Source of the DNA: an uncultured Nitrososphaeraceae archaeon
GTDB lineage: Archaea > Thermoproteota > Nitrososphaeria > Nitrososphaerales > Nitrososphaeraceae
Reading direction: 5' to 3'
NCBI GenBank assembly: GCA_963825865.1
Contig: CAWGVG010000014.1
Coordinates: forward strand, 32,001 to 96,000
Length of the DNA stretch: 64,000 bases
The notes under the pieces were generated by a model. The model searched no databases. It was not told where the DNA came from and saw only the letters and a program-made list of their open reading frames with translations. Each line of letters begins with the position of its first letter. Position 1 is the first letter of the stretch. This document shows, one piece after another, positions 54,702 to 63,896 of the stretch. The position numbers and the translations under genes were made by a program.

Positions 54702-55189
54702 CATTTTAGCAGTCGATATTTAATTTGTTGCGAAGATTGGAATAAAGTGATTACGGTCAAAAAATTTGCATTCCTGACGTATTGTTTTCCTCCTGACAGC
54801 GTAAGAACTCAGAGCAAAACTATATAGATCTATTATAGTGGCTTCACTCGGCTAGCATAGTTGTATTAGGATATATACACTGATACCAAGGTATTTTAAT
54901 TTAATTTCGAAATAGAGCAGTAAGATGGGCTTGGAAGATATGATCATGCTTCTGACATTGTTTCAGGACTGGTAAATTTCAGAATAATGATGCGAACTAA
55001 TGGTGTTATGTTACTCTAAAAAAAGAGCAAGACTAACCATCGTAAAGAGATTTTCTTTCGTAATTACGCAATAGATCTACTGACCAAGGCCGATTGGAAT
55101 CTGAAGCATCTGGTTGTTACCGGACGAGGCAGTTTAAGCACCAATTCTACTTCAAATAATCCAATGGGTTTCAATTCCGTAATGGTTTT

Positions 55190-55475
55190 CATCTCTTGAC
55201 ATTTCAAACGAGTCAATCGCCTTGAGTTTCCAGTAGTTGTTAACCGCATGTTGAAGCGATATAGAAAAATTATAGGTGACTTTTCCAAGACAATATTAGA
55301 TAATATTTACCACTTTGGCTTTTTATCAAACCAGCCTTCATTAATACAGATATCCGTGAATAGTATTGTTTGGGGCTCAGTTTTAGTTTTGATATTAGCT
55401 CTTCACTACCATTTTTTTGCATAGCAATACTATTAAAAAGTTCTAACGATTTATCTTCAGAAATTGAATTTAACT
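55190..55475 (-). pseudogene. Decayed copy of the winged-helix regulator (paralogue of 59309-59707)
   Basis: NSISEDKSLELFNSIAMQK...LSPKQYYSRISVLMKAGLIK...AVNNYWKLKAIDSFEMS, with a stop and frameshifts. DNA visibly similar to 59400-59690. Confidence 0.85.
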
Positions 55476-55579
55476 GACTGTTTGCGTTTTTCCGAATAAA
55501 CCGTGTCTATCTCTTTTTACATACTGGTTCAATTCTTATGATAATATCAACTGTAAGAAAGTGATGTTTTTTACTACGT

Positions 55580-55807
55580 ATGGCTCTGGTCGTACCCCTT
55601 CCTGAACGTTTTGGTCATATTCTGGGTAAGTTCAAAGATGTTTTATCAAAGTCTCAATTTAAGAATTTTCAGAGCGTGATGTTTGGGTTGATTGTATCCC
55701 ATTGTAAAGAACACGATGTGAAGAGTATAAGGGATGCTATATCTGAGACGAAGTGTCAGAGCAGCATTAATAGATTTTTTACTTCTCCATCTTGGAGCCA
55801 AGCCTAG
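55580..55807 (+). mobile_element. IS701-like transposase N-terminal fragment
   Basis: FKDVLSKSQFKNF...GLIV...QSSINRFFTSPSWS, then abrupt end. Confidence 0.7.
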
Positions 55808-56019
55808 AACACGAGGATTTTACCTTCAGCACCCCATCCACGTTTACTATTATTAGTAAATATACTAGATAATCATATCGTGCCTGGTAGCATTCAACTT
55901 TCCATATAATTTCTATTGCACGATTTATACCTCACATTAATAGAAAGACAGTTCTTTTACTGTCGTCTGAACGTGTTAATCAGACTCTTTAATAAAAATA
56001 ATCGGATCATTTTTCTGGG

Positions 56020-56940
56020 ATGAGTTTAAGAGCAATACTACTGTTAACAATATTTTACATAATTACAATAATAAGTTATATCATTATTTTAGATAGCCGT
56101 CGGTGCTCCTACCGCAGCTGCAGCAAAGTCTGTATCATCAAAAAATTTAGACATGGCTACATATTCATATGATGAAATCCACGATGAGGCGATCTCTCGA
56201 GGAGCGCACTTAGGAGAAAGAAAACACCAAGACTTAGGCATTGATACCGAAAGTGGTGGTATAGTTACACAATCATCTGAAAATGCAGTTAGTCAGTCAG
56301 GTAACGATTCACACATCTCGCAAAGGGTTTTCAATACGCTACCTTTGCCATCAGGAGTAACAGGAGGAAGAGGAGCAGATACCTGGAATTAAAGATACAA
56401 CACTACTGATTACACTTCTAAGCGATGTTAATTCTGCTGCTGGATCATCACCCAGGAAACACAAAGTGTATAATTAGTGTTCTAAACATAACAATAAAAG
56501 GTAATCTTATAATTGGAACTGACTGCGATGATATAATTCCTGGAAATGATACGAATGACATTATATTTACCCTCGCAGGAAACAACGAAGCATACGGTGG
56601 TAGTGGTAATGATATAATTTATGCAGGCTCAGGTGAAGATAGATTGTATGGTGATAAGGGAAATGATATATTGGACGGTGGGCCTGGAACTGATTTACTT
56701 GATGGCGGCCTGGAGATGATATAATTGTAGGAGCACTCGATAACGATTTCTTGGTAGGAGGAACAGGTAATGATGTAGCTGTATGGAGGTCCAGGTGATG
56801 ATGTATTAATTGGAGGATCGGGATCTGATTACTTTGATTGTGGAGACGGATCAGACGTAGTAGTAGACTTTAATCCTAAACAAGGAGATACTTATGCAAA
56901 TAATTGTGAAATTATACTTACTCAAAATACTCTATTATGA
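56020..56940 (+). CDS. Second secreted RTX-type calcium-binding repeat protein (multiple frameshifts; may be a pseudogene)
   Basis: Signal-like MSLRAILLLTIFYIITII at 56020, then ORFs 56153-56392 and 56425-56724, GGxGxD repeats, and the tail DYFDCGDGSDVVVDFNPKQGDTYANNCEII. Confidence 0.7.
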
Positions 56941-57034
56941 TAAAATTTTAATGTATATCCAATTTTGGCGAATCTCAATGATTTTTGGAAAAGAATTTTA
57001 TGATACATTTTAATCTTGGATATCAACTACAAGA

Positions 57035-57195
57035 CTTCCCTATATTCAGCAGTTTCCTTCTAATGGCTGTTGGATTATTTTGGCATAACAGGTTTTTATT
57101 TTCGATGAAAAAAAGAGCAAAATAGATAATCGGTAGATTGTTTTGCAGAGCAGTGGAAATTTAAGATACCAATTGCTACTGGGATATAGATAGAT
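57035..57195 (+). pseudogene. Orphan 3' end plus downstream flank of the multi-TM sensor gene (copy of about 63780-63950)
   Basis: ATGGCTGTTGGATTATTTTGGCATAA...AATCGGTAGATTGTT...TAAGATACC...GATATAGAT is shared with the end of 63054-63896. Confidence 0.85.
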
Positions 57196-57440
57196 CTAAT
57201 GGTTCAATGAAAAGAAATATTATGTAAAGCATTTTATATTATTTTTGCTCCTAATTTTTATCTACTGGTCTCAATGTGATTCCTTTTCGATCCTTTGGCT
57301 ATAAATAGAAACAGATGGTAAAAATTCCTCGCATATATCTATTGGACTAATAGTATATACCGACCCGGGCCTTCTTTGCTAGTTCTTGTGCTACAAAATG
57401 AACCGTATCGGACTATTATAATATTATTTATTAATGAACA

Positions 57441-58048
57441 ATGATGGAAAGACAAGAAAAGATGACAACAATAACGAATACAACAACACTGTCAAATCCA
57501 ATACTATATGTTCCAAAAATAATGTTTTTGACTAAAGGCAAAGGCTTACATAAAGACTATCTTACAAGCTTCGAATTGGCCTTACGTGACGCAGAAATAG
57601 CTGATCTTAATTTAGTTTCTGTCTCCAGCATAAAACCACCCCACTGTAAGATAATTTCTCTACAAGAAGGCAGAAAGCATCTAATGTCAGGACAAATTGT
57701 TTTTACTGTTTTAGCTCGTTCCTCTACTAACGAACCAAATAGACTGATTGCTGCATCTGTAGGTCTTGCTAGACCTGCAGACAATACACAGTATGGGTAT
57801 CTATCTGAGCACCATTCAACTGGAGAAACAGCACAAAAGCTGGAGATTATGCCGAGGATATGGCTATGGAAATGCTTGCTATAACATTAGGCTTATCAAA
57901 CGATCCGAGACTTAATTGGGATCAAAGAGCAGAACAATGGAAAGTTTCAGGAAAGATTTACAAAACTCAAAATATTACTCAGTCTGCAGAAGGAAACAAG
58001 GATGGCTTGTGGACAACTGTGGTAGGTTCAACTATTCTGATATTATAG
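57441..58048 (+). CDS. pdaD: Pyruvoyl-dependent arginine decarboxylase (frameshift near 57840)
   Basis: [22 protein letters not shown] self-cleavage motif, YGYLSEHH and GLWTTVV. Confidence 0.92.
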
Positions 58049-58419
58049 GCTATATATGTCGAGCCTAAAAATGGATGTATAATCCATATTTGCCTACATT
58101 CTGTATTTGTTAGCATTCTATTAATTCTCTTTTTGATTACAGTGGTAGCAGGACAATTCTGCTAAATTCGTTTAAATTATATTGATTTGACTTGCCAAGG
58201 CACATTAAGTAAATCAAAATACAAATGCAAAACGCCAAACTAACAGTAGTGAATAACGCTTATAATCTGAATGAGTACATTTGCGTCTTAGCCTTCACCT
58301 TTATTACCACTAGCATCAATACGTACGATTATTATCCTCAGAATATACTTTAGATCTTCCAATAGCTCTCTCTACAGTTAGTATTTCCGATTCTTGTCTT
58401 CTGATTCAGGTATCTAATA

Positions 58420-58890
58420 TCATATCCCTGGTGCTCCATACACTATGAAAGGTTCTTCAAGAATAACATAGCCATGGGTAGCAATCATTGCGTCGATTGT
58501 TCCATCATTATTATCAATCTTTTTGTTATTGTCCTCTGAAATATCATATCCGCAAAGAACAGATAAATTATCTTGTAGACATTTGTCTATTGTTTTTCAA
58601 AGCCCATATAATGACGAGCAAAACCATTTCTCACCCACCATGTTATATCATTGCTTGCAATTCTGGTTTCATTGTTATTGGTATCAATTAGTCGTAACTT
58701 ATTTAATGAAAGCAATTTGGCTACCCAATTGGATAACTTCTCTGCTACTACTACTTCGTCCTCTTGAGATTCCTGTAAAAGCTCTTCATATAATATACTA
58801 TCGTCAACATATCTAAGAATGTAACTACGATCAACACTTGGTTTTTTAGATAATAAAAGACCCTTTTTACCCTTTGTACCAAAGAATGCA
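58420..58890 (-). pseudogene. Truncated, frameshifted paralogue of the MEDS-domain gene 62095-63057
   Basis: Manual translation: KGLLLSK/PSVDRSYILRYVDDSILYEELL..EKLSNWVAKLLSLNK..ETRIASNDITWWVRNG..MGFEK/..DNLSVLCGYDIS..AMIATHGYVILEEPFIVY. Confidence 0.8.
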
Positions 58891-59308
58891 GTTAAACTGA
58901 AGATTGTCGAATTTCTGACACAAAACCTAATGCAATATAAACTTACCTATGAGTTGCTTGGTAATATGCCCCATAATCAATAAAAAATAAAATTTTATCT
59001 TGAATACACTAATTTGTTGATGCAATACCCAATTTCTGAAATTTGATTTGCAACTGAAACCTGCATACCAGTAGCCTGCCATCTAGCTTGCAGGTAGATT
59101 GTCATGTTAGTTAGAGGAAATAAAGAATCAATAGAGTAAATAAATAAATGTCGAACTGGTAAAAAAATTTGATCTTTATGGATCATTGGATGCTATAGAT
59201 TGTTGTAAAAAGAATATACAGAAGTGAACCATCGCGGAAATGATTTATTACCATAGGTAGTGACATCTTGCAGGGATGGATAATCCACATACAAAAGCAA
59301 AAAGCTGG

Positions 59309-59707
59309 TCAGGAAATATCAAAAAGAATTGTTTTAATTTTATCGTCATTACCTATTAGAGCATTTATCAAGTCGACACGTTCGTCTTTTGAAATATTGT
59401 CACTCGACATTTCAAACGAATCAATTGCCGCGAGTTTCCAGTAGTTGTCAACGGCGTGTTGAATCGATGTATAAGAATTATAGGTTATTTTTCCAAGGCA
59501 AGTTAGGTAATATTTACTCCTTTGTCTTTTTATCAGGCCGGCCTTCATTAATGCATATATTCTTGAATAGTATTGTTTGGGGCTCAGTTGTAGTTCTGTT
59601 ATGAGATCTTCACTATCTTTTTTTTGCATGGCAATACTACTAAAAAGTGCTAACGATTTTTCTTCAGAAATTGCATTTATAATATCTGTAGCAGAAGTTT
59701 TGGACAT
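59309..59707 (-). CDS. Winged-helix (ArsR-like) DNA-binding protein
   Basis: LQLSPKQYYSRIYALMKAGLIKRQRSKYYLTCLGK...YWKLAAIDS. Confidence 0.85.
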   Translation of the reverse strand: MSKTSATDIINAISEEKSLALFSSIAMQKKDSEDLITELQLSPKQYYSRIYALMKAGLIKRQRSKYYLTCLGKITYNSYTSIQHAVDNYWKLAAIDSFEMSSDNISKDERVDLINALIGNDDKIKTILFDIS

Positions 59708-60143: not shown

Positions 60144-61184
60144 ATGATTAACTTGTTAAACGGCTCATCAATAGTATTTATACATGCAGGGATTCTCTCT
60201 TTAGAATCAATAATAGCGGAATTATTGCATTCAAGTCTCAACATTCCTTCCTTAGCTATTGCAGCTATTAGCATTCCTATAGCTGGAGCAACATTATTAT
60301 CCTCTTTCATATTAACGACTAAGAAAAAGAGTAACAAATTTACAGTTTTCAAACTATGGAAAGTTTTAATTCCTGCCTCGATCTTTCTTGCAATTGGAAT
60401 TTTTACATGGTATGATTCAGTCAGCAGGATAGGTGCTTCAAAGGATGGCCTACTTGCCGGTCCGCTAGAAACGGTTACAATTTTATTCCTTGCAAGATTT
60501 TTTTTAGGCGATAGACTAAGTAAGTCGCAGAGCCTTGGAGTAATACTTGCATTAGTAGGTTTTTTTGTGACTCTCGAAAATGGAAGCATGTTTTCACAAT
60601 TAAAATCATCTGTATTTACTATCGGAGATATTGAAGCAATAATATCGTCTATTACGTTTGCAACTGGCTATGTTTTTACAACTAAATTGGTTAGAACGTG
60701 TTCCACTATTGAGGTAACAGGTTCTTGCCTCTTGTTTTCAGGCTTGATTTTAATCGCAATATTTTCTATGTCCGTTGTGAGTGATGGTAGATTTTCATTT
60801 CCTTCTTTTAATTTAACTTGGATATCACTACAAAATTGTACATTACTGATGCTATTTTCGTTGGTCCCTCTATCTTCAGCTTTATTTTACAATATGGGTT
60901 TAAATAAAATTGGAGCTTCGCTTACATCTACTATCGCATCGTCGACTATATTGCTAACAATAATCTTCCAAGTTTCCTTGTATGAGCTTGGAATTAACAG
61001 CATATTGCCACTCGATATTCCAATAGCAATCACAGGAGCCATTTTAGGAATTTTTGGCATATGTATAGTTCACATGAACAATATTGTATTATTTATTAGA
61101 TTTTGGCATATGTGCAAAACACCTTTTAAAAAGCTAATTGCTGTGGAAAACGTATCAGCTACTGCAATAAAAATGAGATCATAA
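60144..61184 (+). CDS. DMT/EamA-family transporter
   Basis: About 10 TM segments in two repeats; SRIGASKDGLLAGPLE, LGDRLS, GDIEAII and GLNKIGAS motifs. Confidence 0.88.
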   Translation: MINLLNGSSIVFIHAGILSLESIIAELLHSSLNIPSLAIAAISIPIAGATLLSSFILTTKKKSNKFTVFKLWKVLIPASIFLAIGIFTWYDSVSRIGASKDGLLAGPLETVTILFLARFFLGDRLSKSQSLGVILALVGFFVTLENGSMFSQLKSSVFTIGDIEAIISSITFATGYVFTTKLVRTCSTIEVTGSCLLFSGLILIAIFSMSVVSDGRFSFPSFNLTWISLQNCTLLMLFSLVPLSSALFYNMGLNKIGASLTSTIASSTILLTIIFQVSLYELGINSILPLDIPIAITGAILGIFGICIVHMNNIVLFIRFWHMCKTPFKKLIAVENVSATAIKMRS

Positions 61185-61622
61185 ACTTATCGAGGAGATA
61201 ATACAAAATAATATCGAAAACATTATCTGAAGGAAAAAGTGCCAAGTACAATATACATATTGCTAATATATATAGATTTAAAAGCCAAACAGCAACTTGT
61301 ATAGCAAATAAACCATTTTTCCAAATAACACACGTCTCGGTATCTTTGGTTCACTTTTCAAACTTAATAGGTACACCTTTATAGTTCGTTCTTATTTTTT
61401 TGACCCTTTCCTTTGAAACTTTCCAATATACTTTTTTAGTGTGTGTTTTCCCGCGCCTAACTGTTATATTTCGTACCATTTGCGTATACATTTATCAGTT
61501 ATCAACCTGAGGCATTACATTACCTAATCCGGATAAAATTTCACATTATGTCTAATTTTTAACAAATCACCTAAAACAATATCAGATATATTTTTATATT
61601 ATACCCTTCTACGGAGATTTAA

Positions 61623-62117
61623 ATGGTTTCTTACCAGGAGGTTATACTTGTATTATCTGATAGTAGAACAATGAATCTATTCAGAGGTATTGCCCATACA
61701 AATCATATTGGCGATATAACAAATCTAAGACTTACTCGCAAGCAGTATTACTCAAGGCTGTCTGAGTTGATAAAGTCTGGTTTGATACATAGAAAAAAAG
61801 GCAAATATTTCCTTACAACATTTGGAAAAATAGTTTTTGATGCTCTAACGCATGTTCAACAGAAAATTGAATATGCAATAACTAATATTTGGAAACTTAA
61901 GGCAATCGACTCTCTAGAAGCATATCAGGAGCCATCTAAAGAAGAGCTTGAGACAATTATTGACGCCTTATTAGGCAACAACAATAACGACATAAAGAGG
62001 ATAATAATAAAAGAAGAGAATTCATCATCACATAATATAATTGCAGAAGGAATGCAAGGGGTTAACAACAATACGGAGATGGCCAAAAAAAATAATGTCT
62101 ACAAAAATGAATTCTGA
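61623..62117 (+). CDS. Winged-helix (ArsR-like) DNA-binding protein
   Basis: LRLTRKQYYSRLSELIKSGLIHRKKGKYFLTTFGK...WKLKAIDS. Confidence 0.85.
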   Translation: MVSYQEVILVLSDSRTMNLFRGIAHTNHIGDITNLRLTRKQYYSRLSELIKSGLIHRKKGKYFLTTFGKIVFDALTHVQQKIEYAITNIWKLKAIDSLEAYQEPSKEELETIIDALLGNNNNDIKRIIIKEENSSSHNIIAEGMQGVNNNTEMAKKNNVYKNEF

Positions 62118-63057
62118 ATGTCTGTCTATCCTAGAGGAGCTAGAATATATTTCTGTAGCTCCCAGGTCTGATCAAATTATTTCCGACATCATAATAAAAT
62201 GTCTTGAACAAATTGGAAAATCATATTCTAAAGCCATATTGTATAATATATGTTCACTCAACAATCTATCAGAATACGAGTTATTAACAAACTATGATTT
62301 ATTTGAAAAATCATTGAACAGTGCATTAGGTAAGGCAGGAAATGCAATTCTTAATATTATTAAAAAGGAAATTCTAACATATGCTGTAATGTCAGAGTCA
62401 GGTATTACAGTAGGGGAAATTCTAAATCCGTCTCTTAAAATTAGTGATGTTGTAAAATTTATCCACGAGGCAGAGATATTTGATTTTGTGAGGAACATGG
62501 GATCTCATCATCATACCATATTGTTATACTCAAAAGAAAATTTCAGAAATAAAATATCGGAGCAGTTCTTGAATTCTAGAAAATCCGGATTTAGCGCTTA
62601 TCATCCAAAGGCTGGTCTTTTATCTAATCAAACCATAAAGAAGAATATCAACCCTAGTATAGTTAACAGTTTGTCATTTGAGAAACTATTTCAGCCGACA
62701 ATAAATAAGACATCAATACAGAAATTATTGTACTGGATAGCCAAATCGCATTCATTAAATAAATCACAAGAAGATGTAGATTATAAATCAACAACAAGAG
62801 TTGTAGGAGATGGTACTTGGTGGTTAGAAAACAGCAACGTTGAGTGGCTAGTATCTTTTGAAAAGTTAATTAATAAATACAAAGCTGCCAATAATATGTC
62901 TATGTTATGCGCATTTGATATTTCAAAGATATCCGTATCAAATATGAGCACGACAATGAAACAAATAATTTCATACCACGATAGTGTGATTACAGATAAC
63001 CCATTTGCCATCTATAATAGTAGAACACCAAAAACGAAAATTAGGGCGAGACATTGA
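62095..63057 (+). CDS. Protein with N-terminal helical (DUF3227/NitrOD-like) domain and C-terminal MEDS-like sensory domain
   Basis: CLEQIGKSYSKAILYNI...FEKSLNSALG; MEDS-like HHHTILLY, TRVVGD..WW, SFEKLIN, SMLCAFD and IISYHDSVI. Overlaps both neighbouring genes. Confidence 0.7.
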   Translation: MSTKMNSECLSILEELEYISVAPRSDQIISDIIIKCLEQIGKSYSKAILYNICSLNNLSEYELLTNYDLFEKSLNSALGKAGNAILNIIKKEILTYAVMSESGITVGEILNPSLKISDVVKFIHEAEIFDFVRNMGSHHHTILLYSKENFRNKISEQFLNSRKSGFSAYHPKAGLLSNQTIKKNINPSIVNSLSFEKLFQPTINKTSIQKLLYWIAKSHSLNKSQEDVDYKSTTRVVGDGTWWLENSNVEWLVSFEKLINKYKAANNMSMLCAFDISKISVSNMSTTMKQIISYHDSVITDNPFAIYNSRTPKTKIRARH

Positions 63058-63896
63058 AAACACAACAGGAATTAAATGTAAAGACAGTTCGTAGGAAGCT
63101 TGTTTTTGCATTGATTGTGTGTATTATAGTAACTGACTCTCTCATTGCATTTACACCACAAGAAAACAGGCTTGTTGTTGGTGATATTGTAGTTCCAACC
63201 TCTATAATTATTGCAACAGCTCTTTCACTAATAGTAGTGTACAGACAAAAGATGGATGGCTTAATTGGAAAGGCTTATGCTTTTCTTGCATTAGGATTAA
63301 CGTTATGGTGTATTGCTGAGATCCTTTGGAGCATTACTGAGCTTGTGCTCGGACAGAAAAGGCCATTTCCATCTGTTTCAGACGGTTTATGGTTAGTAGC
63401 GTACGGACCTCTAATATATTATGCTTTTCGCATGTATAATGCCTTTCATAAAAGTTCTTCGAGCAAATTTAGTATCGTTTTGGTATCCATAGGCGTTGCA
63501 GCCTATCTATTATATACAATACCATTGACTGCTTCTACATTTGAACTTTCTAAACAAGATGATTTCTATTTATTCTTAATCAGCATATCATATTCAATTT
63601 TAGATATGGTCTTCATTTTTCCTGCGTCATTGATAATTCTGAATGCTCCAAAGAGAGGAATAGGAGGAGATTTAACATCCATTCCATGGATATTTTTAGC
63701 CATGGTTGTTATTGCTGTTGCCGATATCGTTTTTGGATTTACTTCTGTTGCCGGTTTGGATAGATTAGAGTGGACATCTACTCCAATCTACTCAGCGGGT
63801 TACCTTCTGATGGCTGTTGGATTATTTTGGCATAATAGATTTTTTATATTCGACGAAAAGAAAGTAAATGAAAATTGGCAGAAAGAAAATCGGTAG
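63054..63896 (+). CDS. Stand-alone multi-TM membrane sensor-like protein (7-8 TM, no cytoplasmic output domain)
   Basis: GLTLWCIAEILW, PFPSVSDGLWLVAY, SYSILD and VADIVF match membrane modules usually fused to His kinases or diguanylate cyclases; TTGA overlap with the upstream gene. Confidence 0.75.
   Translation: MKTQQELNVKTVRRKLVFALIVCIIVTDSLIAFTPQENRLVVGDIVVPTSIIIATALSLIVVYRQKMDGLIGKAYAFLALGLTLWCIAEILWSITELVLGQKRPFPSVSDGLWLVAYGPLIYYAFRMYNAFHKSSSSKFSIVLVSIGVAAYLLYTIPLTASTFELSKQDDFYLFLISISYSILDMVFIFPASLIILNAPKRGIGGDLTSIPWIFLAMVVIAVADIVFGFTSVAGLDRLEWTSTPIYSAGYLLMAVGLFWHNRFFIFDEKKVNENWQKENR

What the first reader, a model, noticed from the sequence alone, without database searches (positions are those of the whole stretch)
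61623..63896. Kinase-less three-gene signalling operon: winged-helix regulator, helical+MEDS protein, stand-alone multi-TM sensor
Seen: three co-oriented genes with overlapping ends (62095 starts inside the wHTH gene; TTGA overlap at 63054). Established: MEDS domains and W-x-x-A-E / P-F-P-S-x-x-D-type membrane modules are normally input domains fused to histidine kinases or other output domains. Here neither carries an output domain, and the only candidate output is the upstream wHTH. Inference: a phosphorylation-independent membrane-to-DNA relay (sensor, MEDS adaptor, wHTH) that I do not recognise as a described system. A partner gene beyond the window edge cannot be excluded.
Basis: partly seen in the sequence, partly recalled or inferred. 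Interest (0 to 1): 0.8.

Follow-up and report, generated by a model that had tools for sequence, protein, structure and literature searches.

The report
Kinase-free membrane sensor–adaptor–regulator operon
Soil ammonia-oxidising archaea carry a conserved three-gene operon in which an eight-helix membrane protein is predicted to dock a two-domain adaptor (small helical domain plus dead KaiC-type domain) encoded beside a DNA-binding protein, a likely signalling route that needs no kinase of its own.

Summary
The three co-oriented, overlapping genes are real (wHTH 61623-62117; helical+MEDS protein 62095-63057; 8-TM protein 63054-63896). Beyond the window edge there is no kinase, only an IS transposase and an inverted, older duplicate of EamA-wHTH-MEDS. 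The middle protein's C-domain folds as a RecA/KaiC-like domain without a Walker A motif (MEDS/"iKaiC"). Its N-domain is homologous to small helical proteins that precede the nearest 8-TM homologues in other genera. The 8-TM protein belongs to a sensor-module family that is also found fused to GGDEF-EAL, histidine-kinase or periplasmic-binding domains, but is mostly stand-alone. A first small survey suggested the triplet was not conserved. A survey of 201 family genomes overturned that: MEDS→TM adjacency in 14 of 30 loci (four genera), 13 of them with the wHTH gene, none with a kinase or receiver gene nearby. The MEDS-linked TM proteins form one clade. A controlled complex prediction docks the helical domain on the cytoplasmic loops of the TM protein (0.72 against 0.01), at loops conserved only in adaptor-linked clades. 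Soil metatranscriptome contigs bridge both gene junctions. The reading as a sensor-adaptor-regulator module is partly supported. Independence from phosphorylation and the wHTH link remain inferred. The kind (KaiC/iKaiC hub cassettes) was predicted before, so this is a new variant.

The parts
60144..61184 (+). EamA/DMT-family transporter gene, a recurrent neighbour and candidate regulated target
   Evidence: Pfam EamA 3e-17. Adjacent to the wHTH gene here, in the inverted duplicate (truncated), in sister contig L054, and divergently in five g13 loci (L117-L120, L124). Not found in g5 loci.
61591..61603 (+). TATA-like box about 26 nt before the wHTH ATG (inferred promoter of a leaderless or short-leader transcript)
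   Evidence: Sequence read. The block TTTATATTATA-CCC is conserved in the window copy, sister contig L054 and the diverged duplicate. Its function is inferred.
61623..62117 (+). Short winged-helix (wHTH) protein, 164 aa, member of a paralogue-rich Nitrososphaeraceae family
   Evidence: ORF. Pfam HVO_A0261_N 4.4e-5 and HTH_45 3.8e-3, both below cut-off. 15 of 17 family members hit HVO_A0261_N. Weak profile matches to ArsR/HlyU/Lrs14-type solved wHTH proteins, E 0.007-0.3. Up to 14 matches per genome in relatives.
62095..63057 (+). Two-domain adaptor protein (helical domain + MEDS/inactivated-KaiC domain), 320 aa
   Evidence: ORF and start. Family of 30 near-length relatives. 305 cluster representatives at E<=1e-3 by profile. 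Model pLDDT 80.1.
62095..62499 (+). N-terminal helical adaptor domain (aa 1-135)
   Evidence: hhalign to the small helical proteins that precede TM homologues: probability 91%, E 1.1e-6, 69 columns. The small-protein HMM hits the N-domain of a MEDS-family gene in G015, E 0.003. Weak NitrOD2 hit, E 0.064. VIA match to PH0832 (2p9x), Z 10.3, rmsd 2.2 over 91 residues. Predicted to dock on the TM protein.
62464..63036 (+). C-terminal MEDS / inactivated KaiC-like domain (aa 124-314)
   Evidence: Pfam MEDS 1.7e-6, 28.4 bits against cut-off 29.8. 9 of 30 close relatives carry precomputed PF14417. VIA-align Z 13.3 (rmsd 3.3, 164 aligned) to KaiC-like PH0250, then Elp456, FlaH and KaiC-CI. Foldseek BcsE/Elp456/Rho/RAD51, E 1e-4 to 1e-3. 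0 of 20 family sequences have a Walker A motif.
63054..63896 (+). Stand-alone 8-TM sensor-type membrane protein, 280 aa
   Evidence: Model pLDDT 82.7 with eight long helices plus a C-terminal helix. 145 near-length homologues. Profile hits to GGDEF+EAL (5), HisKA+HATPase (2) and PAS/GAF/HD (1) fusion proteins. Paralogous clade fused to ANF_receptor/Peripla_BP_6 (7 of 7 scanned). No Pfam family at E<=1.

Best explanation
This is a conserved signalling operon of Nitrososphaeraceae.

The 8-TM protein is a stand-alone version of a membrane sensor module. Its membrane core carries acidic and aromatic motifs conserved across the family, which I take to be the ligand- or ion-sensing part.

The protein encoded by the translationally coupled upstream gene docks onto the cytoplasmic face of the 8-TM protein through its N-terminal helical adaptor domain. 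It contacts the TM2-3 loop, the TM4-5 and TM6-7 loops and the C-terminal juxtamembrane segment.

The adaptor's C-terminal MEDS domain is a KaiC/RecA-like fold that has lost its P-loop, so it acts as a binding or switch module, not as an ATPase.

The co-transcribed short wHTH protein has no effector domain of its own and is the output. The state of the membrane sensor would be passed through the adaptor-MEDS protein to the wHTH, for example by holding it at or releasing it from the membrane complex. This would change transcription of the operon and probably of the neighbouring EamA transporter gene.

Shown here: gene order and overlaps, their conservation, the folds, the homology of the adaptor domain, and the monophyly of the MEDS-linked TM proteins.

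Supported by a model only: the adaptor-TM contact.

Inferred: the ligand, the MEDS-wHTH contact, DNA binding, the target genes, and independence from phosphorylation.
For: Anatomy: overlaps at both junctions.

Conservation:
- 4 of 4 sister-species metagenome contigs have MEDS then TM with a 4-nt overlap. 2 of the 2 that reach far enough upstream have the wHTH gene, and 1 has EamA.
- In the family survey, 38 of 201 genomes hold the MEDS-family protein (10 of 18 genera).
- Of the 30 loci read, 14 have MEDS then TM. 13 of those also have the wHTH gene (12 upstream and co-oriented, 1 convergent). 5 more have wHTH with MEDS but no TM.
- 4- or 8-nt MEDS/TM overlaps recur in g5 and g13.
- TM identities to the window protein are 35-48%. 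MEDS identities are 28-36% over full-length alignments, higher over partial ones. The operon is therefore old.

Tree: 9 of 9 MEDS-linked TM proteins form one clade (support 99/98). Their nearest neighbours are the TM proteins preceded by small helical proteins. The PBP-fused clade is separate (100/99).

Adaptor homology.

Complex prediction:
- ipSAE 0.72 (three runs: 0.71, 0.73, 0.72); best of 3 controls 0.01.
- That mark was reached by 58 of 80 solved complexes and 2 of 110 mismatched pairs. These counts hold only roughly because my own alignments were used.
- The runs agree in at least 95% of contacts; partner pLDDT is at least 67.
- All TM interface residues (3-6, 9, 64-72, 130-135, 197, 203-208, 263-266, 271) lie on the predicted cytoplasmic side.
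- They coincide with invariant or near-invariant columns (Q65, K66, D68, G69, G72, L207, T208, F263, F264).
- These loops are conserved only in the adaptor-linked clades, whereas the membrane-core motifs are conserved in all clades.
- No homologous complex is solved: 0 PDB sequence hits for the adaptor family and no significant Foldseek hit for the TM model. The pass is therefore unlikely to come from memory.

Fold and dead ATPase.

Sensor nature of the TM module: fusions.

Expression: contigs of three soil metatranscriptome runs from three studies cover all three genes at 90-99% identity. They bridge the wHTH/MEDS junction (X14 record 18, 61877-62837; X5 record 26; X10 record 11) and the MEDS/TM junction (X10 record 14, 62936-63346; X5 record 28).

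Short wHTH forms lack the C-terminal PLD-like domain that long paralogues carry. This fits a need for a separate sensory partner.
Against:
- The wHTH family is large (up to 14 matches per genome) and most members are not next to MEDS genes.
- The TM gene is dispensable in some lineages. The window genome's own inverted duplicate has no TM gene or remnant, and 5 of 30 loci have wHTH and MEDS without TM. In G157 the MEDS gene looks decayed while the wHTH and TM genes remain.
- Relatives of both adaptor domains are tied to two-component systems. All 3 'small helical + TM' loci have an HK or REC gene within about 2 kb. MEDS-family genes of G013 and G064 sit by kinases and that of G042 by a receiver. 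Rare fusions MEDS-HisKA-HATPase and PAS-module exist. A link in trans to a kinase therefore cannot be excluded.
- Local absence of kinases is weak evidence. The genome has HK homologues in 33-81 bins, so the stretches examined would hold few by chance.
- The Pfam MEDS score is under the cut-off, and hhalign to one canonical MEDS protein gives only 30% probability (E 5.5e-4).
- Contigs from RNA libraries cannot prove a single transcript, and RNA libraries can hold DNA.
- The complex score is a model's confidence, not a measurement.
Confidence: 0.5

Rival explanations
1. The adaptor-MEDS protein and the 8-TM protein form an accessory input module of a two-component system encoded elsewhere. The membrane complex would modulate a histidine kinase or a stand-alone receiver in trans, and the wHTH would only autoregulate the operon.
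For: Homologous 'small helical protein + 8-TM' pairs lie beside HK/REC genes in 3 of 3 loci (G027 twice, G014). MEDS-family genes sit beside HK or REC in G013 (two loci), G064 and G042. MEDS-REC and NitrOD-REC fusions are listed for Nitrososphaera (PMC5847659, passages read). Fusions with HisKA-HATPase exist. The genome is rich in HK/REC genes.
Against: No HK/REC gene lies within 1.5 kb in 0 of 19 wHTH-context loci. None of 11 extended loci has an HK. The HK/REC context and the wHTH/TM context do not overlap among the 30 loci. The wHTH gene overlaps the MEDS gene, as expected of a working partner.
Confidence: 0.22
2. The 8-TM protein is not a sensor but a transporter, an enzyme or a plain membrane anchor. 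The adaptor-MEDS protein would be its regulatory subunit, and the wHTH an ordinary local repressor with no protein-level link to them.
For: The fold search gives no significant match (Foldseek best E 0.037; VIA Z at most 11.9, below the level trusted for helical bundles). Invariant acidic residues inside the bundle would also suit an ion or substrate path. A DMT transporter gene is a frequent neighbour.
Against: Homologous modules form the N-terminus of GGDEF-EAL, histidine-kinase and PAS/GAF/HD proteins. They also precede extracytoplasmic ligand-binding domains (7 of 7). These are the architectures of sensor modules, not of transporters.
Confidence: 0.15
3. The arrangement in this window is a relic of duplication and IS activity without present function.
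For: The region is IS-rich. It holds an inverted duplicate and at least two decayed copies.
Against: All three ORFs are intact here. Orthologous operons exist in other genera at 28-48% identity with conserved overlaps. Soil RNA libraries hold contigs of all three genes.
Confidence: 0.03

Closest known systems
Archaeal KaiC / inactivated-KaiC 'signal transduction hub' cassettes with Death-like helical adaptors (Makarova, Galperin & Koonin 2017, mBio; recalled). The paper is not held. I saw only its citation and its description in PMC5847659.
   Same: A KaiC-superfamily domain, here inactivated, is joined to a small helical adaptor and encoded with a wHTH protein and a polytopic membrane protein. 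Signalling is by protein-protein contacts. Earlier finding e1-2600915 reports such a four-gene operon (small adaptor, wHTH, KaiC ATPase, membrane sensor) in Nitrososphaera viennensis.
   Different: Here the adaptor and the dead KaiC-like (MEDS) domain are one polypeptide and there is no active ATPase. The membrane partner is an 8-TM module homologous to GGDEF/HK N-terminal sensors. Whether the 2017 paper lists this exact neighbourhood could not be checked.
HalOD1-iKaiC proteins of haloarchaea (PMC5847659; Table 3 and Fig. 3 legend passages, supplement file 1)
   Same: A small lineage-specific helical 'output' domain is fused N-terminally to an inactivated KaiC-like domain, with no REC domain.
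   Different: HalOD1 is a different domain family, and no sequence link was tested or seen here. No coupled 8-TM partner or wHTH is described in the passages I read.
MEDS domain (PF14417) sensors: DcmR, MEDS-histidine kinases, RsbA-type anti-sigma factors; stand-alone MEDS and MEDS-REC of Nitrososphaera (PMC5847659)
   Same: The C-domain matches the MEDS profile at its C-terminal half and RsbA_anti_sig weakly (E 0.0023). It has the RecA/KaiC-like fold without a P-loop. Distant family members are fused to HisKA-HATPase.
   Different: The score is below the Pfam cut-off. There is a low-complexity insert and an extra N-terminal helical domain. The partners are a wHTH and a membrane protein, not a kinase.
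Membrane-associated sensor modules (MASE3/MASE4, HisKA_7TM) at the N-terminus of GGDEF/EAL proteins and histidine kinases
   Same: The module is a polytopic helical bundle found N-terminal to GGDEF-EAL, HisKA-HATPase and PAS/GAF/HD domains. The language-model search lists MASE3, HisKA_7TM and MASE4 clusters at score 0.79-0.80, which is a lead only.
   Different: No Pfam MASE or HisKA_7TM hit at E<=1. The protein stands alone. The coupling surface is predicted to bind a separate adaptor rather than pass into a fused output.
'Small helical protein + 8-TM protein' gene pairs beside histidine kinases in G027 and G014
   Same: The TM proteins are the nearest relatives outside the MEDS-linked clade (39-43% identity; tree). 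The upstream gene overlaps the TM gene. The small protein is homologous to the adaptor N-domain.
   Different: The small proteins have no MEDS domain. HK/REC genes, not a wHTH gene, are the neighbours.
Membrane sequestration of transcription regulators (such as Mlc held by the glucose transporter PtsG) and anti-sigma/ECF sigma pairs (recalled from general knowledge)
   Same: These work in a similar way: a membrane protein's state controls a DNA-binding protein through protein contacts, without a dedicated kinase-receiver pair.
   Different: There is no sequence or fold relation, and here the relay has a separate adaptor. This is a resemblance of logic only.

Membership tests
MEDS (PF14417) | Match to the Pfam profile at or above the gathering score, over the whole domain | tested here: not met
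   28.4 bits against a cut-off of 29.8, covering profile positions 100-151 of 161 only. 9 of 30 close relatives carry a precomputed PF14417 label. hhalign to one canonical MEDS protein: 155 columns, E 5.5e-4, probability 30%. I therefore call it MEDS-like/divergent.
MEDS / inactivated KaiC (iKaiC) | RecA/KaiC-like alpha/beta fold | tested here: met
   VIA-align Z 13.3 (rmsd 3.3, 164 aligned) to PH0250, Z 13.2 to Elp456, 13.0 to FlaH, 11.8 to KaiC-CI, over model residues 124-315. Foldseek E 1.3e-4 to BcsE.
MEDS / inactivated KaiC (iKaiC) | Loss of the Walker A (P-loop) motif | tested here: met
   0 of 20 family sequences contain [AG]xxxxGK[ST].
Active KaiC-like ATPase | Walker A motif after the first strand | tested here: not met
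   The segment after strand 139-145 carries no glycine-rich loop.
NitrOD2 (PF18550) / NitrOD5 (PF11537), 'Death-like' archaeal adaptor domains | Match to the Pfam profile at the gathering score | tested here: not met
   N-domain against NitrOD2: E 0.064, 13.9 bits against cut-off 25. 1 of 8 small helical homologues hits NitrOD5 at E 0.0021. This is a lead to relatedness, not membership.
   hhalign probability 91%, E 1.1e-6, 69 columns. HMM hit E 0.003 on the N-domain of a MEDS-family gene.
MASE3/MASE4/HisKA_7TM membrane sensor domains | Match to a Pfam profile | tested here: not met
   No Pfam family at E<=1. Only language-model neighbours at 0.79-0.80.
Membrane sensor module (functional class) | Homologues occur N-terminal to signalling output domains | tested here: met
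   Of 10 longer proteins found: 5 with GGDEF+EAL, 2 with HisKA+HATPase, 1 with PAS/GAF/HD, 2 without Pfam labels. 7 of 7 long Nitrososphaeraceae ORFs carry ANF_receptor/Peripla_BP_6.
7-TM receptor (GPCR-like) fold | Significant structural match | tested here: inconclusive
   VIA Z 9-11.9 (rmsd 4-5.6, 183-223 aligned) to many GPCRs over residues 33-277, below the level of about 13 advised for helical bundles. Foldseek best E 0.037.
Two-component system | HisKA/HATPase or REC gene in or beside the operon | tested here: not met
   None in C14:74001-116000. 0 of 19 wHTH-context loci. Of 11 extended loci, 0 have an HK and 1 has a REC about 6.5 kb away.
ArsR/TrmB-type wHTH regulators | Profile match above threshold | tested here: inconclusive
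   HVO_A0261_N 4.4e-5 (23.7 against 35 bits) and HTH_45. TrmB in 2 of 17 members. PDB profile hits to HlyU/ArsR at E 0.007-0.02.

The most novel reading that the evidence does not exclude
The operon is a self-contained, phosphorylation-independent receptor-adaptor-regulator pathway of archaea. A GPCR-like helical-bundle receptor would pass its state through its cytoplasmic loops to a docked Death-like adaptor domain. The adaptor's dead KaiC domain would then gate a winged-helix transcription factor. That would make it an archaeal counterpart, in logic, of eukaryotic receptor-adaptor signalling. It would have arisen when an adaptor of a kinase-linked sensor pair fused with an iKaiC domain and swapped the kinase for a DNA binder.
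Probability: 0.3. Interest if true: 0.8.

Novelty: new variant of a known kind. Interest (0 to 1): 0.6.

Why it matters
Archaeal signalling is poorly understood. The census I read (PMC5847659) concludes that it runs mostly through protein-protein contacts whose partners are unknown. This operon offers a concrete, testable three-protein case in soil ammonia oxidisers, organisms that matter for nitrogen loss and N2O emission.

It comes with:
- a predicted interface defined at residue level;
- a clear evolutionary series, from adaptor + sensor beside kinases to an adaptor-iKaiC fusion + sensor + wHTH;
- evidence of expression in soils.

It also shows how a 'sensor module' usually seen fused to outputs can work as a separate subunit.

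Tried and rejected
(1) My first survey gave the wrong answer. In 40 relatives, MEDS matches were found in 6 of 41 genomes. None of the 29 TM loci with 1.5-kb flanks had a wHTH or MEDS gene. I provisionally read the TM gene as a lineage-specific addition. The 201-genome survey overturned this, because the small sample had drawn g5 and g13 genomes that lack the operon.

(2) The search for related loci in genome contigs with the family alignment returned only 4 loci. Two of them (L055, L056) show wHTH then MEDS without a visible TM gene. They may overlap genomes and are not counted twice.

(3) TM fold: Foldseek found nothing at E<=0.001. The GPCR-like VIA matches are below the advised level.

(4) N-domain: no language-model hit and no PDB sequence hit. 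Literature searches for PH0832 and 2P9X gave nothing useful.

(5) PADLOC returned only a generic wHTH match, E 8e-4, and nothing for the other two proteins, so a defence-system reading was dropped.

(6) RNA cover: the three RNA runs have no contig over 61279-61540, upstream of the wHTH gene, while DNA run X1 covers it. RNA contigs begin at 61635 (X10) and 61698 (X14). This fits a transcript start near the ATG, but a hole in contigs proves nothing.

(7) No direct or inverted repeat stood out as an operator in 61185-61640.

(8) The Makarova 2017 paper could not be read. The citing papers held only the reference.

(9) A search for a TM remnant beside the inverted duplicate found none.

(10) Earlier-findings look-ups by place and by sequence returned nothing.
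Full report
OBSERVATION

Reading the junctions gives two overlaps. The ATG at 62095 lies 23 nt inside the wHTH gene, whose stop is at 62115-62117. The TTG at 63054 overlaps the TGA at 63055-63057 (TTGA). Sister-species contigs begin the middle protein at the Met aligned with 62095, so I take 62095-63057 (320 aa) as the gene.

A TATA-like block at 61591-61603 lies about 26 nt before the wHTH ATG. It is conserved in three diverged copies of the locus, which suggests a leaderless or short-leader transcript (inference).

Pfam:
- wHTH: only sub-threshold winged-helix hits.
- Middle protein: MEDS at 1.7e-6, but 28.4 bits against a cut-off of 29.8 and only over its last third.
- TM protein: nothing at E<=1.
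- Upstream gene 60144-61184: EamA, 3e-17.

BEYOND THE WINDOW EDGE

The window is G000:C14:32001-96000. Downstream of the TM gene lie, in order:
- a DDE_Tnp_4 transposase on the other strand;
- an inverted older copy of the MEDS gene (75% identity), the wHTH gene (67%) and a truncated EamA gene;
- a second DDE transposase.

The duplicate has no TM gene or remnant. No HK, REC, roadblock-like or small-MEDS homologue lies in C14:74001-116000. The genome as a whole has HK homologues in 33-81 and REC homologues in 14-55 1.5-kb bins, depending on the query. The organism is thus rich in two-component genes, and the local absence alone is not statistically meaningful.

THE MIDDLE PROTEIN

It has only 30 near-length relatives in the 5.8-billion-protein collection. 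A profile of 20 of them finds 305 cluster representatives at E<=1e-3 and 176 at E<=1e-10, mostly 260-330 aa with the same two-domain build.

Of the 12 representatives scanned, three carried signalling fusions: a PAS domain before the whole module, and HisKA-HATPase before or after the MEDS part.

The AlphaFold model (pLDDT 80.1) has two parts.
- A helical N-domain. It matches a small uncharacterised Pyrococcus protein, PH0832 (Z 10.3, rmsd 2.2 over 91 of 98 residues). This is under the level advised for helical proteins, and I found nothing written about that protein.
- An alpha/beta C-domain (124-314). It matches KaiC-like and RecA-like proteins. VIA gives Z 13.3 to PH0250, 13.2 to Elp456, 13.0 to FlaH and 11.8 to KaiC-CI. 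Foldseek gives BcsE, Elp456, Rho and RAD51 at 1e-4 to 1e-3.

None of the 20 family sequences has a Walker A motif. This is what Galperin et al. call MEDS (iKaiC), which they list as stand-alone MEDS, MEDS-REC and REC-MEDS in Nitrososphaera and Nitrosocosmicus (PMC5847659, passages read).

THE TM PROTEIN

The model (pLDDT 82.7) has eight long helices and a short C-terminal helix. The positive-inside rule puts both ends in the cytoplasm (read from the sequence). This fits the paralogues that add a ninth helix before an extracytoplasmic binding domain.

Homologues:
- 145 near-length relatives, some labelled 'diguanylate cyclase' by one source.
- A profile search among longer proteins found 10: five with GGDEF+EAL, two with HisKA+HATPase, one with PAS/GAF/HD, and two unlabelled.
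- In Nitrososphaeraceae a sister clade is fused to ANF_receptor/Peripla_BP_6 (7 of 7 long ORFs scanned).

But stand-alone forms are the majority found.

No solved structure matches convincingly. The Foldseek best hit is E 0.037. VIA gives Z 9-11.9 to many GPCRs. Language-model neighbours (MASE3, HisKA_7TM, MASE4, at 0.79-0.80) are leads only.

IS THE TRIPLET CONSERVED?

First pass. My first look said no. Among 40 relatives, the MEDS family was in 5 of 24 same-family genomes and the TM family in 20 of 24. None of the 29 TM loci had a MEDS or wHTH gene within 1.5 kb. MEDS-family genes of G013 sat beside kinases, a receiver and a canonical MEDS protein.

Sister species. Four metagenome contigs at about 80% identity all showed MEDS then TM with the 4-nt overlap. 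One carried the full EamA-wHTH-MEDS-TM order. One showed an M1-aminopeptidase-like gene downstream rather than a kinase.

Wide survey. This changed the picture. The family profile hits 38 of 201 Nitrososphaeraceae genomes, in 10 of 18 genera. The 30 loci returned fall into three groups.
- 14 have a MEDS-family gene directly followed by a TM-family gene: genera g1, g5, g12 and g13, or 13 of 29 without the unpublished G176. In 13 of these a wHTH-family gene is adjacent (12 upstream and co-oriented, 1 convergent).
- 5 more have wHTH and MEDS without TM.
- 11 have neither. The only HK or REC neighbours, three loci, are in this last group.

Extended flanks of 11 loci (up to 7 kb on each side) hold no HK homologue and one REC about 6.5 kb away. 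The MEDS/TM overlap is 4 nt in g13 and 8 nt in g5. EamA is adjacent in g1 (co-oriented) and in five g13 loci (divergent), but not in g5.

Some copies are damaged:
- the TM gene is split in G148;
- the MEDS gene is apparently decayed in G157;
- the MEDS gene is split in G176.

WHERE THE ADAPTOR CAME FROM

The nearest TM relatives outside this set (G027 twice, G014; 39-43% identity) are each preceded, with overlap, by a 108-118-aa helical protein.

These small proteins are homologous to the N-domain of the middle protein. With eight of them, hhalign gives probability 91%, E 1.1e-6, over 69 columns. With three it gave 45%, E 2.2e-4. Their HMM independently hits the N-domain of a MEDS-family gene in G015 (E 0.003).

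One small protein hits NitrOD5 (E 0.0021), and the window N-domain hits NitrOD2 weakly (E 0.064). PMC5847659 assigns these domains to an archaeal 'Death domain-like' family and lists them as receiver-linked or stand-alone modules.

Those small-protein/TM pairs lie among HK, REC and TackOD1 genes. In G037 a small homologue precedes what reads as a KaiC-like ATPase with an intact Walker A motif (read from the translation; no Pfam scan).

In a maximum-likelihood tree of 25 TM modules (midpoint root for drawing only):
- the 9 MEDS-linked ones form one clade (99/98);
- the three small-protein-linked ones and one lone gene are their nearest neighbours;
- the PBP-fused or PBP-adjacent ones form a separate clade (100/99).

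The simplest reading is an ancestral adaptor + sensor pair working with kinases. One lineage then fused an iKaiC/MEDS domain to the adaptor and became linked to a wHTH gene (inference).

DO THE ADAPTOR AND THE SENSOR TOUCH?

Result:
- ipSAE 0.71, 0.73 and 0.72; best of three controls 0.01.
- The mark was reached by 58 of 80 solved complexes and 2 of 110 mismatched pairs. These counts hold only roughly because my own alignments were used.
- The runs agree in at least 95% of contacts; partner pLDDT is at least 67.

The verdict is that the model supports binding but does not show it. Three further points add weight.

First, every TM residue in the interface (3-6, 9, 64-66, 68-72, 130-135, 197, 203-208, 263-266, 271) lies on the side that topology puts in the cytoplasm.

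Second, these residues include invariant or near-invariant columns of the family (Q65, K66, D68, G69, G72, L207, T208, F263, F264). The adaptor side (39-57, 75-87) covers the two Leu-Gly-centred helices, which are the only blocks shared with the small helical proteins.

Third, the loops Y-R-Q-K-x-D-G-x-x-G-K, G-x-L-T-x-x-P-W and W-H-N-x-F-F-I are conserved in the MEDS-linked and small-protein-linked clades. They are replaced by other sequences in the PBP clade. The membrane-core motifs (W-x-x-A-[ED], P-x-P-S-x-x-D, Y-P-x-L-D, and the Asp of helix 7) are kept in all clades.

No related complex is solved, so a pass from memory is unlikely.

EXPRESSION

Contigs of three soil metatranscriptome runs from three studies lie on all three genes at 90-99% identity, so they come from close relatives. 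Single contigs bridge both junctions:
- wHTH/MEDS junction: X14 record 18 (61877-62837), X5 record 26, X10 record 11;
- MEDS/TM junction: X10 record 14 (62936-63346), X5 record 28.

This is compatible with co-transcription. It does not prove it, since RNA libraries can hold DNA and a contig is not a transcript.

HOW IT MOST LIKELY WORKS

My confidence in this reading is 0.5.

The 8-TM protein senses something through its conserved, acidic membrane core. The adaptor domain sits on its cytoplasmic loops. The attached dead-KaiC domain acts as a switch or binding platform. The short wHTH, which lacks the PLD-like effector domain of its long paralogues, is the output, with the operon itself and EamA as likely targets.

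What is shown: gene order, conservation, folds, homologies and the single origin of the clade. What is supported only by a model: the adaptor-sensor contact. What is inferred: the signal, the MEDS-wHTH contact, DNA binding, and the absence of phosphotransfer.

The main rival (0.22) is that the membrane complex feeds a kinase or receiver encoded elsewhere. All relatives of its parts have such ties, and the genome is full of them. A second rival (0.15) is that the TM protein is a transporter or enzyme with a regulatory subunit. A decaying relic is unlikely (0.03).

COMPARISON AND NOVELTY

The parts are known kinds. MEDS/iKaiC, Death-like NitrOD adaptors and wHTH proteins are all listed as elements of thaumarchaeal signalling in PMC5847659. 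That paper also shows HalOD1-iKaiC fusions in haloarchaea.

The idea that KaiC-like and inactivated KaiC proteins, with helical adaptors, form signalling hubs comes from Makarova, Galperin and Koonin 2017. I recall that paper but could not read it.

An earlier finding of this scan (e1-2600915) reports a small-adaptor / wHTH / KaiC / membrane-sensor operon in Nitrososphaera viennensis. Others report iKaiC or KaiC cassettes with membrane proteins in Asgard archaea and Chloroflexota. I did not test these.

My literature searches found no description of this fused adaptor-MEDS + 8-TM + wHTH operon. The 2017 paper's neighbourhood tables and supplement file 2 of PMC5847659 were out of reach and may bear on this.

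I therefore file it as a new variant of a known, so far only predicted, kind. What is new here:
- the conserved operon itself;
- the evolutionary series that links it to kinase-associated sensor pairs;
- a residue-level predicted docking of a Death-like adaptor on a sensor module's cytoplasmic loops.

LIMITS

- Only one locus per genome was read for most genomes.
- G176 is unpublished and contributes one locus to the counts.

Noticed in passing
G000:C14:96273-105076 (just beyond the window end; L001 8273-13076): There is an inverted, older segmental duplicate of EamA(truncated)-wHTH-MEDS (67-75% protein identity). A DDE_Tnp_4 transposase lies at its inner end and a DDE_Tnp_1 transposase at its outer end. 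The duplicate lacks a TM gene.
   Followed up: partly
window 55167-59707: This stretch is a graveyard of further copies. It holds an intact paralogous wHTH gene (59309-59707, -) followed by a decayed MEDS remnant with stop codons (58432-58892, -). It also holds a 27-residue remnant of the TM C-terminus (57039-57113, +) and a decayed wHTH (55167-55494, -).
   Followed up: partly
L025, L026, L028, L033, L037, L040, L042; own genome C8:58536-60543: In Nitrososphaeraceae a sister clade of the 8-TM module is fused, through a ninth helix, to an extracytoplasmic ANF_receptor/Peripla_BP_6 domain (708-800-aa ORFs). These are the building blocks of class C receptors in reversed order. In the window's own genome the two parts are separate overlapping ORFs.
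   Followed up: partly
L017 7146-7529; L056 4032-4421; L104; L112: Roadblock-like DUF6659 genes (E 0.002-0.016, below cut-off) lie next to MEDS-family genes in several genomes that lack the TM partner. PMC5847659 relates NitrOD3 to Roadblock/LC7.
   Followed up: no
window 61510-61545 and the aligned blocks in L054 and L001: A second conserved block lies about 80-110 nt upstream of the wHTH start and is shared by three diverged copies of the locus. It is a candidate operator.
   Followed up: no
L073, L074, L077, L098: A recurrent cluster joins a long wHTH paralogue (~300 aa, wHTH plus PLD-like C-domain) with a short wHTH paralogue, and in three of the four loci (L073, L074, L098) a UbiA-type prenyltransferase gene. 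In G015:C304 it lies about 1.6 kb from a TM-PBP fusion gene.
   Followed up: no
G000:C26:247671-253002; L016 4748-6610: Histidine kinases with an N-terminal PLD-like domain lie near MEDS-family paralogues. In the window's genome there are two tandem copies, one of them split.
   Followed up: no
L093 (G037:C1:128163-131366): A 126-aa member of the small helical adaptor family lies directly upstream of a two-domain KaiC-like ATPase that appears to keep its Walker A motif (read from the translation; no Pfam scan). This is the unfused, active counterpart of the adaptor-iKaiC protein.
   Followed up: no
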